Of a stretch of 51,807 nt of DNA, positions 4,502-49,625 are shown in pieces. The notes beneath the pieces were generated by a model. That model ran no database searches and was not told the DNA's origin. It worked only from the letters and a program-made list of their open reading frames with translations. This DNA is from Escherichia coli (GTDB lineage: Bacteria > Pseudomonadota > Gammaproteobacteria > Enterobacterales > Enterobacteriaceae). The translations under genes were made by a program, and so were the position numbers. Position 1 is the stretch's first letter. Every line of letters starts with the position of its first letter. Location: NCBI RefSeq assembly GCF_003334765.1, contig NZ_QOWT01000029.1. The stretch is one strand, 5' to 3'.

Positions 4502-4975
4502 TTATTGCCGCCACGGCATGACAGGAACCGCGCTAATCGCGTTTTTCGGCGAACCTTCTACAACTTTGTCGGAGTAAGCCAGATAAGCGAGCGCGTTGCG
4601 TTTGGCGTCATAAAAGCGCACGACCTGTAACGACTTAAAGACCAGGGACGTGCGTTTTTTGAATACTACCTCGCCCTGAGCTTTGCCGTTTTTAATACGA
4701 TCCGACAGTTCAATCGGCCCGACTTGCTGACAAGAAATGGCCGCATCGGAGGTATCTTCTGCCAGGCCCAATCCCCCTTTAATACCACCGGTTTTCGCCC
4801 GGCTCACATAACAGGTGACATTTTTCACATCGGGATCGTCAAAGGCTTCCACAACAATTTTGTGATCCGGGCCGATCATTTTAAATACGGTGTCGACCGA
4901 ACCAATCTCTTCTGCATGAGCCAATGGCCCCAGCATTATCAGGCTTAAAGACAGGATCAAATGCTTGTATTTCAT
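4502..4975 (-). CDS. creA: Periplasmic protein CreA
   Basis: 157-aa ORF with signal peptide ([21 protein letters not shown]); first gene of the cre cluster. Confidence 0.9.
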
Positions 4976-45433: not shown

Positions 45434-47098
45434 TTAAAACGTTTCCCAGTTCTCCCCGCTATCTGCCACTGCCATTTTACGCGGCGTAGCTGGCGTCACG
45501 TTTTTTACCACAGCCGATGTTTCACGCTGCTGTTGCTGCTGTTGCTGAATCCGGAACACTGCCACAGCTTCGGTCAGGCGACTGGCCTGCTCTTCCAGCG
45601 CGGCGGCGGCAGCGGCAGATTCTTCCACCAGCGCAGCGTTCTGTTGAGTTACCCGGTCCATCTCAGCAACCGCTAAGCCAACCTGATCGATACCACGGCT
45701 CTGCTCATCAGAAGCAGAAGCAATTTCGCCCATAATGTCCGTCACGCGGGTCACGGCACTGACAATCTCCGCCATTGTTTCCCCTGCGCTTTCGACCAGC
45801 GTAGAGCCAACATCTACTTTCCCCACCGAGTCTTCAATCAGGCTTTTAATTTCACGAGCCGCCTGAGCGCTGCGCTGAGCCAGATTACGCACTTCACCCG
45901 CGACCACCGCAAAACCGCGCCCTTGCTCACCCGCGCGCGCTGCTTCAACCGCCGCGTTCAAAGCCAGAATATTGGTCTGGAAGGCAATGCCGTCAATTAC
46001 GCTGATAATATCGGCGATTTTCTGCGAACTGGTGGAGATATCGCGCATGGTCTGTACTACGTTATCCACCACTTTGCCGCCGCGTTGCGCCGTTTCAGAA
46101 GCACTTAACGCCAGATGGCTGGCCTGACGCGCATTCTCGGCGTTCTGTTTCACCGTTGCGGTCAGTTGCTCCATGCTGGCTGCCGTCTCTTCCAGCGAAG
46201 CGGCCTGTTGCTCGGTGCGCGAAGAGAGATCGTTATTGCCGGTGGCGATTTCGCTGGCACCGCTATAGATGGCATTGGCCCCGTTGCGCACATCACCGAC
46301 GGTACGCATCAGCTCTCCCTGCATATGGCGCAAACTCTCTGCCAGTTGCCCCATCTCATTAGAGCCATCCACCTCAATCGGTTTCACCAGATCGCCGCCT
46401 GCAATATGACGAATGCTGTCAATCAGGCGATTCATTGGCGCTACCAGCGAGGCTTTAATACCGAACCAGACGGCGAAGATGACCGCCAGTACGACGATCA
46501 TCACGCCCACCAGAATCCACATCGCCTGGCTGTAGGAGGCATTGTTATCGCTGACGGCGATATCATAGAGCCGATCGTCTTGCTCCATGTAAGCCACATA
46601 CTGCTTCTCGAAACCGTCCTGATATCCCTGGGTCGGCTGATCAAAGAACTCGTTGATTTTGCCTGCACCTAATAGTTGGATCAGCTCCGCCAGCGCATTG
46701 TGATAAATATCGTAATTACGTTTGATCTCTGCCGCTGCGGCGGTGCTCTGACGCGGGTCACGCGGCAACGCTTCGTAATCCGCCCAGTTTTTTTCCGCCT
46801 GTTTCAGCGAAATACTGGCACTCTGCATCAGCTCAGCAACGGTTGAACCGCTACCAATATTATTCTGATCCATCATGTAGCGGATACCCGCGCGGTTGAG
46901 GGTGTTACGCGTCTGCAACAACGCGACCCAGCTGCCATTCAGCGTGGATTGCTGCTGGCGAATGGTTTGTAAAACAGTGAAATTTTCTTTGTCATTCTTT
47001 AAGGCATTAAAGAACAGACCGCCTGATGTCAGTTGTAAAAGGCCAAAAACGGCCAAAACCAGCAGTAAGCTGGTCACAATTTTGATACGTTTTAACAT
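45434..47098 (-). CDS. tsr: Methyl-accepting chemotaxis protein I (serine chemoreceptor) Tsr
   Basis: 554-aa ORF with two TM segments, HAMP, methyl-accepting signalling domain and C-terminal NWETF pentapeptide; contains a 7-glutamine tract. Confidence 0.95.
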
Positions 47099-47127
47099 GG
47101 TTTCTCTTTCCTGTGGACCGATGCAAG

Positions 47128-47154
47128 ATTTTCGGCCTGGAAAGGAAAAACTTT
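47128..47154 (-). promoter_or_regulatory. Sigma-28 (FliA) promoter of tsr
   Basis: On the minus strand TAAAGTTT-11 nt-GCCGAAAA matches the FliA consensus TAAAGTTT-N11-GCCGATAA, about 30 bp upstream of tsr ATG. Confidence 0.7.
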
Positions 47155-47246
47155 ATGAATATCCCGCGGAGATTACGCCGAGTAATTTTATTCACACTCT
47201 GAATTTAAAAAGCCATTATTTACATAAATTATTCACAATATAAATA

Positions 47247-47262
47247 TGTGATATGAATCACA
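47247..47262. promoter_or_regulatory. CRP binding site upstream of btsT
   Basis: TGTGA-tatgaa-TCACA, a perfect match to both CRP consensus half-sites. Confidence 0.65.
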
Positions 47263-47310
47263 TATTTATCGTCACTTAAACGACGCCTTTGCCGCTCAAC
47301 CGCAAAACTG

Positions 47311-47339
47311 ACCGCTTACATCCCTAAAATAACCACTCA
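47311..47339 (+). promoter_or_regulatory. BtsR (YehT) binding site: direct repeat with 13-bp spacer
   Basis: ACCGCTTA-13 nt-ACCACTCA matches the ACC(G/A)CT(C/T)A direct-repeat motif, about 135 bp upstream of btsT ATG. Confidence 0.7.
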
Positions 47340-47474
47340 GTTATTTACCTTACTTTACGCGCGCGTAACTCTGGCAACATCACTACAGGATAGCGGTCAA
47401 TTTACCTCCTCAAACGCAACGCAAACCTAGAACGGCTTCGGCCAACTATTAATCAATACATGCCAGGTTTTACT

Positions 47475-49625
47475 ATGGATACTAAAAAGATATTCAAGCA
47501 CATACCCTGGGTGATTCTCGGAATCATCGGTGCATTCTGCCTCGCGGTAGTTGCATTACGTCGGGGGGAGCACGTCAGCGCCCTGTGGATCGTGGTCGCC
47601 TCTGTATCGGTGTATCTGGTGGCGTATCGCTACTACAGTCTGTACATCGCCCAGAAGGTGATGAAACTCGACCCCACGCGCGCGACGCCTGCGGTTATTA
47701 ACAACGACGGTCTGAACTACGTTCCGACCAACCGTTACGTGTTGTTTGGTCACCACTTCGCCGCTATCGCCGGTGCTGGTCCGCTGGTGGGTCCGGTTCT
47801 CGCCGCGCAGATGGGCTACCTGCCTGGCACGCTGTGGCTGCTGGCGGGGGTCGTGCTGGCCGGTGCGGTTCAGGACTTTATGGTGCTGTTTATCTCCTCT
47901 CGCCGTAATGGCGCATCTCTTGGTGAGATGATCAAAGAAGAGATGGGACCAGTACCGGGGACTATCGCGCTGTTTGGCTGTTTCTTAATCATGATCATCA
48001 TCCTCGCCGTCCTGGCGCTGATTGTGGTTAAAGCCCTGGCCGAAAGTCCGTGGGGTGTCTTCACCGTTTGCTCAACCGTACCGATTGCGCTGTTTATGGG
48101 TATCTACATGCGCTTTATTCGTCCGGGGCGTGTGGGTGAAGTCTCTGTCATTGGTATCGTGCTGCTGGTTGCCTCTATCTACTTCGGTGGCGTGATTGCT
48201 CACGATCCGTACTGGGGTCCGGCACTGACCTTTAAAGACACCACCATTACCTTCGCGCTGATTGGCTATGCGTTTGTTTCCGCACTGCTGCCGGTGTGGC
48301 TGATCCTCGCACCGCGCGACTATCTGGCAACCTTCCTGAAAATCGGCGTTATCGTCGGCCTGGCGCTGGGTATCGTGGTGCTGAACCCGGAACTGAAAAT
48401 GCCTGCCATGACCCAGTACATTGACGGTACTGGCCCGCTGTGGAAAGGCGCTCTGTTCCCGTTCCTGTTCATCACCATCGCCTGTGGTGCGGTATCTGGC
48501 TTCCACGCGCTGATCTCTTCCGGTACGACGCCAAAACTGCTGGCTAATGAAACCGACGCGCGTTTCATCGGCTACGGCGCAATGCTGATGGAGTCCTTCG
48601 TGGCGATTATGGCGCTGGTTGCTGCGTCCATCATCGAACCGGGTCTTTACTTCGCGATGAACACCCCGCCTGCTGGCCTTGGCATCACCATGCCTAACCT
48701 GCATGAAATGGGTGGCGAGAACGCGCCGATCATCATGGCGCAGCTGAAAGACGTTACCGCACACGCGGCAGCGACCGTCAGCTCCTGGGGCTTCGTGATT
48801 TCGCCAGAGCAGATCCTGCAAACCGCGAAAGACATTGGTGAGCCTTCTGTCCTGAACCGTGCAGGTGGTGCGCCGACGCTGGCGGTAGGTATCGCTCACG
48901 TGTTCCACAAAGTGCTGCCGATGGCTGACATGGGCTTCTGGTATCACTTCGGTATTCTGTTCGAAGCACTGTTCATCCTGACCGCGCTGGATGCGGGTAC
49001 CCGTTCTGGCCGCTTTATGCTGCAAGACCTGCTGGGTAACTTCATCCCGTTCCTGAAAAAAACCGACTCTCTGGTTGCCGGTATCATCGGTACTGCGGGC
49101 TGTGTGGGTCTGTGGGGCTACCTGCTGTATCAGGGCGTGGTCGATCCGCTGGGCGGCGTTAAGAGCCTGTGGCCGCTGTTCGGTATTTCCAACCAGATGC
49201 TGGCAGCCGTAGCGCTGGTACTGGGCACCGTTGTGCTGATTAAGATGAAGCGCACCCAATACATCTGGGTAACTGTTGTTCCGGCTGTATGGCTGCTTAT
49301 CTGCACCACCTGGGCGCTGGGCCTGAAACTGTTCAGCACCAACCCGCAGATGGAAGGCTTCTTCTACATGGCAAGCCAGTACAAAGAGAAGATTGCTAAC
49401 GGTACTGACCTGACGGCGCAGCAGATTGCCAACATGAACCACATCGTTGTGAACAACTACACCAACGCAGGTCTGAGTATTCTGTTCCTGATTGTGGTGT
49501 ACAGCATCATCTTCTACGGTTTCAAAACCTGGCTTGCGGTGCGTAACAGCGACAAACGTACTGACAAAGAAACACCGTACGTTCCAATCCCGGAAGGCGG
49601 CGTGAAGATCTCTTCGCACCACTAA
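47475..49625 (+). CDS. btsT: CstA-family pyruvate/H+ symporter BtsT (YjiY)
   Basis: ORF track 721 aa; start moved to MDTKKIFKHIPW to give 716 aa; polytopic membrane protein. Confidence 0.93.
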   Translation: MDTKKIFKHIPWVILGIIGAFCLAVVALRRGEHVSALWIVVASVSVYLVAYRYYSLYIAQKVMKLDPTRATPAVINNDGLNYVPTNRYVLFGHHFAAIAGAGPLVGPVLAAQMGYLPGTLWLLAGVVLAGAVQDFMVLFISSRRNGASLGEMIKEEMGPVPGTIALFGCFLIMIIILAVLALIVVKALAESPWGVFTVCSTVPIALFMGIYMRFIRPGRVGEVSVIGIVLLVASIYFGGVIAHDPYWGPALTFKDTTITFALIGYAFVSALLPVWLILAPRDYLATFLKIGVIVGLALGIVVLNPELKMPAMTQYIDGTGPLWKGALFPFLFITIACGAVSGFHALISSGTTPKLLANETDARFIGYGAMLMESFVAIMALVAASIIEPGLYFAMNTPPAGLGITMPNLHEMGGENAPIIMAQLKDVTAHAAATVSSWGFVISPEQILQTAKDIGEPSVLNRAGGAPTLAVGIAHVFHKVLPMADMGFWYHFGILFEALFILTALDAGTRSGRFMLQDLLGNFIPFLKKTDSLVAGIIGTAGCVGLWGYLLYQGVVDPLGGVKSLWPLFGISNQMLAAVALVLGTVVLIKMKRTQYIWVTVVPAVWLLICTTWALGLKLFSTNPQMEGFFYMASQYKEKIANGTDLTAQQIANMNHIVVNNYTNAGLSILFLIVVYSIIFYGFKTWLAVRNSDKRTDKETPYVPIPEGGVKISSHH

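What the first reader, a model, noticed from the sequence alone, without database searches (positions are those of the whole stretch)
47247..47339. Composite control region for btsT: perfect CRP site plus BtsR direct repeat, back-to-back with the sigma-28 tsr promoter
The tsr-btsT intergenic region contains a consensus CRP palindrome (TGTGA-N6-TCACA) and, 49 bp downstream, ACCGCTTA-13 nt-ACCACTCA matching the BtsS/BtsR response-regulator motif. On the opposite strand the FliA promoter for tsr sits about 100 bp away. This is a compact divergent unit coupling carbon starvation and pyruvate sensing with chemoreceptor expression.
Basis: partly seen in the sequence, partly recalled or inferred. Interest (0 to 1): 0.3.

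Follow-up and report, generated by a model that had tools for sequence, protein, structure and literature searches.

The report
Known btsT promoter control region
This is the already published control region of the E. coli pyruvate transporter gene btsT, with a CRP site and BtsR response-regulator repeats, and it sits next to the tsr chemoreceptor promoter without being coupled to it.

Summary
The window is E. coli. Its tsr-btsT spacer differs from K-12 MG1655 by one base. It holds a perfect CRP core (47247-47262), the published BtsR/YehT repeat ACCGCTTA-N13-ACCACTCA (47311-47339) and, on the other strand, a sigma-28 promoter for tsr (47129-47155). All three are far beyond chance and conserved across Enterobacterales.

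The "compact divergent unit coupling" part is not supported:
- The gap between the tsr promoter and the CRP site varies from 35 to 97 bp between species.
- At least 42% of complete E. coli genomes carry a different btsT upstream allele. In both genomes I opened, a genomic island (hpa cluster or another) sits in that gap.
- More than half of the sampled species have no tsr promoter within 1.5 kb of btsT.
- The CRP site always stays with btsT, at a fixed 44-bp offset from the first repeat.

Increments beyond the published description, as far as I could check it:
- A third, equally conserved repeat lies 20 bp upstream (47291-47298). It is degenerate in this allele.
- An extended -10 element is conserved.
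- The inferred start site places CRP at -132.5.

Verdict: real, ordinary, already known.

The parts
45434..47098 (-). tsr coding sequence (serine chemoreceptor)
   Evidence: ORF listed. RefSeq genomes 100% identical over the compared 46900-47700 annotate tsr here.
47129..47155 (-). Sigma-28 (FliA) promoter of tsr: TAAAGTTT (47148-47155), 11-nt spacer, GCCGAAAA (47129-47136)
   Evidence: One mismatch to the consensus and the only hit in the window. The same element is found in 35 other species loci with 1-2 mismatches. An RpoF holoenzyme SELEX peak falls in the yjiY/tsr spacer (PMC5493296).
47160..47246 (.). Variable spacer between the two promoters; insertion hot spot for genomic islands
   Evidence: The tsr-side breakpoint in the hpa-positive strain HB101 falls after window 47159. 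Islands occupy this gap in L085 and L086. Gap length varies from 35 to 97 bp between species.
47247..47262 (.). CRP binding site with a perfect core, TGTGATATGAATCACA; centre at about -132.5 from the inferred btsT start
   Evidence: A core with 0-2 mismatches is present in all 81 orthologous upstream regions. All 10 consensus bases are kept in the otherwise unalignable E. coli allele 2. CRP dependence of btsT comes from the literature.
47271..47278 (+). Possible vestigial repeat R0 (GTCACTTA), 20 bp upstream of R1
   Evidence: Two mismatches here. Only 22 of 81 species have 2 or fewer mismatches at this offset. Weak, and probably not functional.
47291..47298 (+). Repeat R1 (GCCGCTCA, 1 mismatch), a third BtsR-type repeat that the finding did not list
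   Evidence: The three-repeat pattern with 1 mismatch or fewer had 0 hits in 100 shuffles. R1 has 1 mismatch or fewer in 80 of 81 species and is perfect in 57. It lies 20 bp before R2 in 76 of 81. It is perfect (ACCGCTCA) in E. coli allele 2. It lies inside the published YehT-site oligonucleotide.
47311..47318 (+). Repeat R2 (ACCGCTTA), the first of the two published BtsR/YehT motifs
   Evidence: It has 1 mismatch or fewer in 81 of 81 species and is perfect in 72.
47332..47339 (+). Repeat R3 (ACCACTCA), the second of the two published BtsR/YehT motifs
   Evidence: It has 1 mismatch or fewer in 81 of 81 species and is perfect in 58. It lies 20 bp (53 species) or 21 bp (27 species, including E. 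coli) after R2.
47343..47365 (+). Conserved block ATTTACC..CTTTACGCGCGCG between R3 and the -10 element (the -35 region; exact role unknown)
   Evidence: Column conservation in the R3-anchored comparison of 81 sequences.
47372..47380 (+). Probable extended -10 element of the btsT promoter (TGgCAACAT)
   Evidence: TGnCAnn[A/T]T lies 39-40 bp after the start of R3 in 67 of 81 species. Its position fits the inferred start site exactly.
47387..47474 (+). Inferred btsT transcription start (47387) and 88-nt 5' untranslated region
   Evidence: Inference. The standard reporter fragment is named PbtsT -212/+88 (PMC10653868). That name fits a 300-bp fragment ending at the start codon. 47387 is also 7 nt after the conserved -10 hexamer. 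No start-site data were held in the library.
47475..49625 (+). btsT (yjiY) coding sequence, pyruvate/H+ symporter
   Evidence: The K-12 annotation starts at the same codon (MDTKK...).

Best explanation
Window 47247-47339 is the upstream activating region of the E. coli btsT (yjiY) promoter, and it is essentially as published.

**How it most likely works**
- The phosphorylated LytTR-type response regulator BtsR (YehT) binds direct repeats of ACC[G/A]CT[C/T]A at about -76 and -55. A third repeat at about -96 is probably also bound. The repeats follow a 20-21 bp period, so they lie on one face of the helix.
- From there BtsR recruits RNA polymerase to a weak promoter that relies on an extended -10 element (TGgCAACAT, 47372-47380).
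- cAMP-CRP binds the perfect site centred near -132.5, at a fixed distance from the repeats, and acts as an obligatory co-activator.
- A site that far upstream cannot contact polymerase in the usual class I or class II way. I therefore infer that CRP works by bending DNA or by stabilising the BtsR array (class III-like).
- Transcription thus needs both external pyruvate (through BtsS/BtsR) and the absence of a preferred carbon source (through cAMP-CRP).

**Relation to tsr.** The divergent sigma-28 tsr promoter is an independent neighbour, not part of the same switch.

**Shown here:** the motifs, their non-random occurrence, their conservation and their fixed geometry.
**From the literature:** dependence on BtsR and on CRP.
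**Inferred:** the start site, the role of R1 and the way CRP acts.
For: - The motifs are present and non-random.
- The spacer is identical to K-12 MG1655 except for a 1-bp indel near 47183.
- The published YehT-site oligonucleotide equals window 47287-47343 (PMC4847170).
- btsT is reported as BtsS/BtsR-activated and cAMP-CRP-dependent (PMC5431176; PMC10653868). A crp deletion abolishes PbtsT-lux (PMC7730263).
- Footprint across 80 Enterobacterales species plus E. coli alleles: the CRP core is present in 81 of 81; R1, R2 and R3 have 1 mismatch or fewer in 80, 81 and 81 of 81; the CRP-to-R1 offset is 44 bp in 71 of 81; the repeat period is 20-21 bp; the spacers between these elements are not conserved.
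- Natural experiment within E. coli: allele 2 shares only 29% identity in the 28-nt CRP-R1 spacer and 16% upstream of CRP. It still keeps the CRP consensus bases and the exact spacing.
- A conserved extended -10 lies at a fixed 39-40 bp from R3.
- Independence from tsr: the gap is variable or interrupted.
Against: - I could not read Kraxenberger et al. 2012. The motif wording, whether the CRP site itself was ever mutated, and the mapped start site therefore rest on my memory of the abstract and on citing papers.
- The crp-deletion effect could be partly indirect.
- A CRP site at about -132.5 is unusually far upstream for direct activation.
- The start site is inferred from a plasmid name and a conserved motif, not from data.
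- No binding data for R1 are available to me.
Confidence: 0.86

Rival explanations
1. The spacer is a truly bidirectional control region. The CRP site, and perhaps BtsR, also modulates the divergent sigma-28 tsr promoter, coupling serine chemotaxis to pyruvate and carbon status.
For: - The CRP centre is roughly equidistant from both promoters in this window (about 130 bp each way; and my arithmetic).
- The tsr-btsT adjacency is old. A FliA promoter lies within 100 bp of the CRP site in 23 other species and within 1.5 kb in 34, not counting the 3-mismatch L060 hit.
- There is a physiological link. BtsS/BtsR responds to serine depletion and pyruvate (PMC5431176), and Tsr senses serine.
Against: - The gap between the FliA promoter and the CRP site varies from 35 to 97 bp, so there is no fixed helical phase.
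- 2262 of 5426 E. coli genomes carry the other btsT upstream allele. In the two such genomes inspected, islands of about 6-11 kb separate the promoters.
- About 44 of 80 species have no tsr promoter within 1.5 kb.
- The CRP site always stays with btsT.
- The literature describes btsT as the single target of BtsR (PMC5936718).
Confidence: 0.07
2. CRP control of btsT is indirect, for example through cAMP effects on btsSR expression or on pyruvate metabolism, and the perfect CRP palindrome is not functionally used at this promoter.
For: - The site lies about 130 bp upstream of the inferred start, outside the classical class I and class II positions.
- The evidence I could read is genetic (crp deletion), not site-directed.
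Against: - The core is conserved in 81 of 81 orthologous regions at a fixed offset from the BtsR repeats, while the flanking bases are free to vary.
- It is kept in E. coli allele 2 even though the surrounding sequence has been replaced.
- Only 0.06 perfect sites are expected by chance in the whole window.
Confidence: 0.06
3. The motif matches are chance similarities in an AT-rich intergenic region.
For: - Single ACCRCTYA octamers are common: 8 in the window against about 5 expected.
- A 1-mismatch CRP-like site also occurs inside a coding region at 4814-4829.
Against: - The composite patterns are unique in the window, with shuffle expectations of 0.06, 0.19 and 0.00.
- They are conserved across more than 20 genera.
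- They match a published binding-site oligonucleotide.
Confidence: 0.01

Closest known systems
E. coli K-12 yjiY (btsT) promoter as described by Kraxenberger, Fried, Behr and Jung (J Bacteriol 2012) and follow-up papers from the Jung laboratory
   Same: The sequence is the same, with one indel elsewhere in the spacer. The two ACC[G/A]CT[C/T]A motifs with a 13-bp spacer are the same. The cAMP-CRP dependence is the same. The published YehT-site oligonucleotide equals window 47287-47343.
   Different: Nothing differs in the sequence. Comparative analysis adds a third conserved repeat (R1, 47291-47298) and a fixed CRP-to-repeat geometry.
LytTR-family response-regulator sites (AgrA P2/P3, ComE, PlnC, YpdB at yhjX)
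   Same: Direct repeats of 8-10 bp separated by 11-13 bp, upstream of a weak promoter (general description in PMC4847170).
   Different: Here three repeats at a 20-21 bp period are conserved, rather than the usual two. An obligatory CRP site also lies at a fixed distance upstream.
CRP-dependent co-activated (class III) promoters with distal CRP sites, such as acsP2, malK/malE and araBAD (from my own knowledge)
   Same: A CRP site lies far upstream of the core promoter and acts together with a second, signal-specific activator.
   Different: The partner is a LytTR response regulator. The CRP centre, inferred at about -132.5, is more distal than most characterised cases. The mechanism has not been tested.
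Class 3 flagellar sigma-28 promoters (tar, fliC, motA, tsr)
   Same: TAAAGTTT-N11-GCCGAAAA lies just upstream of tsr, is conserved across species and is bound by RpoF holoenzyme in SELEX.
   Different: None; this is the known tsr promoter.

Membership tests
CRP (cAMP receptor protein) binding site | 16-bp palindromic core TGTGA-N6-TCACA | tested here: met
   Perfect core at 47247-47262, unique in the window, against 0.06 expected.
CRP (cAMP receptor protein) binding site | Conserved in orthologous promoter regions | tested here: met
   A core with 0-2 mismatches is present in 81 of 81 btsT upstream regions. It sits at a fixed 44-bp offset from R1 in 71 of 81. It is retained in the diverged E. 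coli allele 2.
CRP (cAMP receptor protein) binding site | Downstream gene is cAMP-CRP dependent | not testable with these tools
   Literature only. A crp deletion abolishes PbtsT-lux (PMC7730263), and CRP-cAMP is stated to be required (PMC10653868).
CRP (cAMP receptor protein) binding site | Physical binding of CRP to this sequence, and loss of regulation on site mutation | not testable with these tools
   No footprint or ChIP data were found in the accessible papers.
   0 mismatches at 47311-47339. The site is contained in the published 'yjiY YehT bs' oligonucleotide.
BtsR/YehT (LytTR response regulator) binding site | General LytTR architecture: 9-11 nt repeats with 11-13 nt spacers (PMC4847170) | tested here: met
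   Spacers are 12 nt (R1-R2) and 13 nt (R2-R3) here, and 12 or 13 nt across species. Three repeats are conserved, not two.
BtsR/YehT (LytTR response regulator) binding site | Located just upstream of the core promoter of the regulated gene | tested here: inconclusive
   R3 would span -55 to -48 if the start is 47387. That start is inferred from the fragment name -212/+88 and the conserved extended -10. No start-site data were held.
Sigma-28 (FliA) promoter | TAAAGTTT-N11-GCCGATAA upstream of a flagellar or chemotaxis gene | tested here: met
   One mismatch at 47129-47155 on the minus strand, 31 bp upstream of the tsr start codon. Conserved in 35 other loci with 1-2 mismatches. SELEX peak reported in PMC5493296.
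Shared bidirectional control region (one regulator site serving two divergent promoters) | Fixed spacing or phase between the shared site and both promoters | tested here: not met
   The gap from the CRP site to the FliA promoter varies from 35 to 97 bp, whereas the CRP-to-R1 offset is fixed at 44 bp.
Shared bidirectional control region (one regulator site serving two divergent promoters) | The adjacency of the two promoters is maintained in evolution | tested here: not met
   Only 2752 of 5390 E. coli genomes have the contiguous spacer. Islands are inserted in the others I examined. About 44 of 80 species have no tsr promoter within 1.5 kb.

The most novel reading that the evidence does not exclude
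The btsT promoter is a fixed-geometry, four-site nucleoprotein switch. One CRP dimer and three BtsR protomers sit at a 20-21 bp period, CRP lies 44 bp from the first repeat, and the arrangement is conserved across Enterobacterales. On this reading the third repeat (R1) is a functional BtsR site that the two-repeat description missed. The K-12-type allele in this window carries a rare weakened R1 (G in place of the A found in 78 of 81 sequences). About 42% of E. coli genomes carry a perfect R1 on a diverged upstream allele; in both genomes I opened, that allele accompanies a genomic island. E. coli lineages would then differ in how strongly or how sharply they induce pyruvate uptake.
Probability: 0.3. 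Interest if true: 0.35.

Novelty: already known. Interest (0 to 1): 0.12.

Why it matters
It matters little as a discovery. The CRP and BtsR control of btsT and the sigma-28 promoter of tsr are textbook-level entries for E. coli K-12.

The modest added value is comparative:
- The data show which bases and which spacings are under constraint.
- They point to a third repeat that may be needed for full BtsR activation.
- They show that adjacency to tsr is dispensable.
- They identify the gap between the two promoters as a recurrent landing site for catabolic islands.

This is useful for anyone engineering PbtsT as a pyruvate biosensor, or comparing pyruvate scavenging between E. coli lineages.

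Tried and rejected
- **Primary papers.** Kraxenberger 2012 (PMC3416263) and Behr 2014 (PMC4010973) are not held. I relied on citing papers instead.
- **CRP binding data.** I searched for CRP ChIP, SELEX or regulon papers naming yjiY. None gave binding data for this site.
- **Mapped btsT start site.** The Cappable-seq supplements (PMC4782308) contained none of the expected coordinates.
- **Structured RNA.** An Rfam scan of 46900-47700 gave only sub-threshold chance hits (Pistol at E = 0.29; NRON). I rejected a structured RNA element.
- **Generic sigma-70 promoter scan.** It found three weak AT-rich hits around 47191-47257, against 1.1 +/- 1.2 expected, and no hit at the real btsT promoter. This is uninformative, as expected for an activator-dependent promoter.
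- **A CRP-proximal second promoter (class I or II) for btsT.** I considered and rejected it. The DNA at the required -10 positions is occupied by the conserved BtsR repeats and has no -10-like hexamer (by eye).
- **A fourth repeat (R0, 47271-47278).** It is only weakly conserved, with 2 or fewer mismatches in 22 of 81 species, so I do not claim it.

Full report
**1. What is there**

The window is Escherichia coli. Positions 46900-47700 are 100% identical to many RefSeq genomes, including Nissle 1917, and those genomes annotate tsr and btsT on either side. The 376-bp spacer (47099-47474) differs from K-12 MG1655 only by a 1-bp indel near 47183. tsr runs leftward from 47098. btsT (yjiY) runs rightward from 47475.

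- TGTGATATGAATCACA at 47247-47262.
- ACCGCTTA at 47311-47318, a 13-nt spacer, then ACCACTCA at 47332-47339.
- On the minus strand, TAAAGTTT-N11-GCCGAAAA at 47129-47155.

Each composite pattern is unique in the 51.8-kb window. Dinucleotide-preserving shuffles give these expectations:
- 0.06 for a perfect CRP core.
- 0.19 for the two-repeat pattern, even with 2 mismatches allowed.
- 0.37 for the FliA pattern with up to 3 mismatches.

Single ACCRCTYA octamers are not rare: there are 8 against about 5 expected. The spaced repeat is what carries the signal.

**2. What the literature says**

- The oligonucleotide the Jung laboratory used as the 'yjiY YehT binding site' in surface plasmon resonance work is CCTTTGCCGCTCAACCGCAAAACTGACCGCTTACATCCCTAAAATAACCACTCAGTTA. 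That is window 47287-47343 exactly (PMC4847170).
- btsT/yjiY transcription is described as BtsS/BtsR (YehU/YehT)-mediated and cAMP-CRP-dependent, with post-transcriptional control by CsrA (PMC5431176; PMC10653868; PMC5936718).
- A crp deletion abolishes the PbtsT-lux reporter (PMC7730263).
- RNA polymerase carrying sigma-28 gave a genomic SELEX peak in the yjiY/tsr divergent spacer, and tsr is marked there as the known target (PMC5493296).
- The founding paper (Kraxenberger et al. 2012) is not held. I recall its abstract describing two direct repeats of ACC[G/A]CT[C/T]A separated by 13 bp, and cAMP/CRP dependence. That recollection is from memory and was not checked.

**3. Comparative anatomy**

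A scan of one genome per species returned 80 loci with BtsT orthologues of at least 90% amino-acid identity. They come from more than 20 genera of Enterobacterales, from Escherichia to Rahnella and Erwinia, mostly with 1.5 kb of upstream sequence. I anchored the upstream regions on the CRP core. The sample of 81 consists of 78 of these loci (two had too little upstream sequence) plus the window and two extra E. coli loci, L002 and L003.

| Element | Result across the 81 sequences |
|---|---|
| CRP core | 0-2 mismatches in all 81 |
| R1 | 1 mismatch or fewer in 80; perfect in 57; at CRP+44 in 71 |
| R2 | 1 mismatch or fewer in 81; perfect in 72 |
| R3 | 1 mismatch or fewer in 81; perfect in 58 |
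| R1-to-R2 period | 20 bp in 76 |
| R2-to-R3 period | 20 bp in 53; 21 bp in 27, including E. coli |

- So there are three conserved ACCRCTYA repeats, not two.
- The CC, C and T core positions of each repeat are invariant or nearly so. The spacers between elements carry almost no information.
- In the window, R1 is GCCGCTCA at 47291-47298. Its first base is G, whereas 78 of 81 sequences have A. The three-repeat pattern with 1 mismatch or fewer had no hit in 100 shuffles.
- A possible fourth repeat, 20 bp further upstream (47271-47278), is only weakly conserved, and I do not claim it.
- Downstream of R3 lies a conserved block, ATTTACC..CTTTACGCGCGCG (47343-47365).
- After that comes TGnCAnn[A/T]T, at 39-40 bp from the start of R3 in 67 of 81 sequences. 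I read this as an extended -10 element (TGgCAACAT, 47372-47380).

**4. Inferred start site and positions**

The standard reporter is named PbtsT -212/+88. If that is the 300 bp ending at the start codon, then +1 is 47387. That position is an A lying 7 nt after the conserved -10 hexamer, so the two lines of inference agree. On that basis:
- R3 spans -55 to -48.
- R2 spans -76 to -69.
- R1 spans -96 to -89.
- The CRP centre is at -132.5.

This is inference. I found no start-site data.

**5. A natural experiment inside E. coli**

- Only 2752 of 5390 genomes carry the contiguous spacer.
- 2262 genomes carry a different btsT upstream allele, which I call allele 2.
- In the examples I opened, allele 2 goes with an island between tsr and btsT. 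One is the 11-gene hpa (4-hydroxyphenylacetate) cluster (L085; tsr-side junction in HB101). The other is a 5-gene island encoding a MurR/RpiR regulator, a sodium:solute symporter, a RidA protein, an N-acyl-D-amino-acid deacylase and an amino acid deaminase (L086).

Comparison of allele 2 with the window:

| Segment | Identity to the window |
|---|---|
| 25 nt upstream of CRP | 16% |
| CRP 16-mer | 14 of 16, with all 10 consensus positions kept |
| 28-nt CRP-R1 spacer | 29%, same length |
| R1 | 7 of 8 (perfect ACCGCTCA in allele 2) |
| R2 to start codon | 99% or more |

The surrounding DNA has effectively been replaced, yet the CRP site and its distance to the repeats are preserved. This is good evidence that both the site and the spacing are under selection for btsT.

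**6. Relation to tsr**

- The FliA promoter is conserved wherever tsr is nearby (35 other loci with 1-2 mismatches).
- Its distance to the CRP site is 35-97 bp in the 23 species with direct adjacency. It is 0.7-1.2 kb in 11 species with small insertions.
- About 44 species have no FliA promoter within 1.5 kb.
- Taken with the E. coli islands, this shows that the gap 47160-47246 is where the two modules come apart.

There is no fixed phasing and no conserved adjacency, so I reject the idea of a coupled divergent unit. The adjacency itself is old. It may reflect a loose functional relation, since serine is sensed by Tsr and serine depletion and pyruvate are sensed by BtsS. But it is not a shared regulatory device.

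**7. Mechanism**

This is inference layered on published genetics.
- BtsR~P occupies the phased repeats and recruits RNA polymerase to an extended -10 promoter that has a poor -35.
- cAMP-CRP, bound four helical turns upstream of R1, is an obligatory co-activator.
- At about -132.5 it is too distal for classical class I or class II contacts. It probably works by bending DNA or by stabilising the BtsR array.
- The result is AND logic between external pyruvate and relief of catabolite repression.

**8. Verdict**

The coupling to tsr is not supported. The increments are the third repeat, the fixed geometry, the allele replacement and the island hot spot. They are minor, and the first of these may already be in the paper I could not read.

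Noticed in passing
window 47160-47246; L085 4125-15855; L086 8831-14986: The gap between the tsr promoter and the btsT CRP site is a recurrent island insertion site in E. coli. It is empty here and in K-12. It holds the 11-gene hpa cluster in strain 2013C-4538 and a 5-gene island (MurR/RpiR regulator, sodium:solute symporter, RidA, N-acyl-D-amino-acid deacylase, amino acid deaminase) in strain CUVET19-1704. Only 2752 of 5390 genomes are contiguous.
   Followed up: partly
L002 1456-1527 and L003 1456-1527, compared with window 47247-47318: E. coli has two highly diverged alleles of the btsT upstream region. Allele 2 is found in 2262 genomes. It keeps the CRP core and the exact spacing, has a perfect R1, and is preceded by a terminator-like hairpin (ccccttc...gaagggg followed by a T run) 6 nt from the CRP site.
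   Followed up: partly
L002 1655-1795; the same element in L005 1349-1489 and L007 1349-1489: An imperfect palindromic element of about 125 bp (predicted fold -59.9 kcal/mol) is inserted in the btsT 5' untranslated region just upstream of the ribosome-binding region. It resembles the ERIC/IRU repeat as I remember its consensus. It lengthens the leader from 88 to about 211 nt in some E. coli, a cryptic Escherichia clade and E. albertii. It could affect CsrA control or mRNA stability.
   Followed up: partly
window 47343-47365: A conserved block, ATTTACC..CTTTACGCGCGCG, lies between the last BtsR repeat and the -10 element. It contains a short TTTAC direct repeat. Its role is not known to me; it could be the -35 region, a polymerase alpha-subunit contact or the site of another regulator such as LeuO.
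   Followed up: no
window 47271-47278: GTCACTTA lies 20 bp upstream of R1 and looks like a decayed fourth repeat. Only 22 of 81 species have 2 or fewer mismatches at this offset.
   Followed up: yes
yhjX oligonucleotide printed in PMC4847170 (not in the window): The paralogous YpdB target site in the yhjX promoter also seems to have a degenerate third copy (CGTCATTCAT) 21 bp upstream of site A. This hints that three phased repeats may be common to both pyruvate-sensing LytTR systems. Seen by eye only.
   Followed up: no
window 4814-4829: GGTGACATTTTTCACA is the only other CRP-like match in the window, with 1 mismatch. It lies inside an ORF (4502-4975, minus strand) and fits the chance expectation of 1.3 such hits.
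   Followed up: yes
L007 (Escherichia albertii) 662-919: Upstream of btsT in E. albertii the FliA promoter motif is intact, 91 bp from the CRP site. However, the only Tsr-like match is a short segment of 52% identity, which suggests a decayed or replaced chemoreceptor gene.
   Followed up: no
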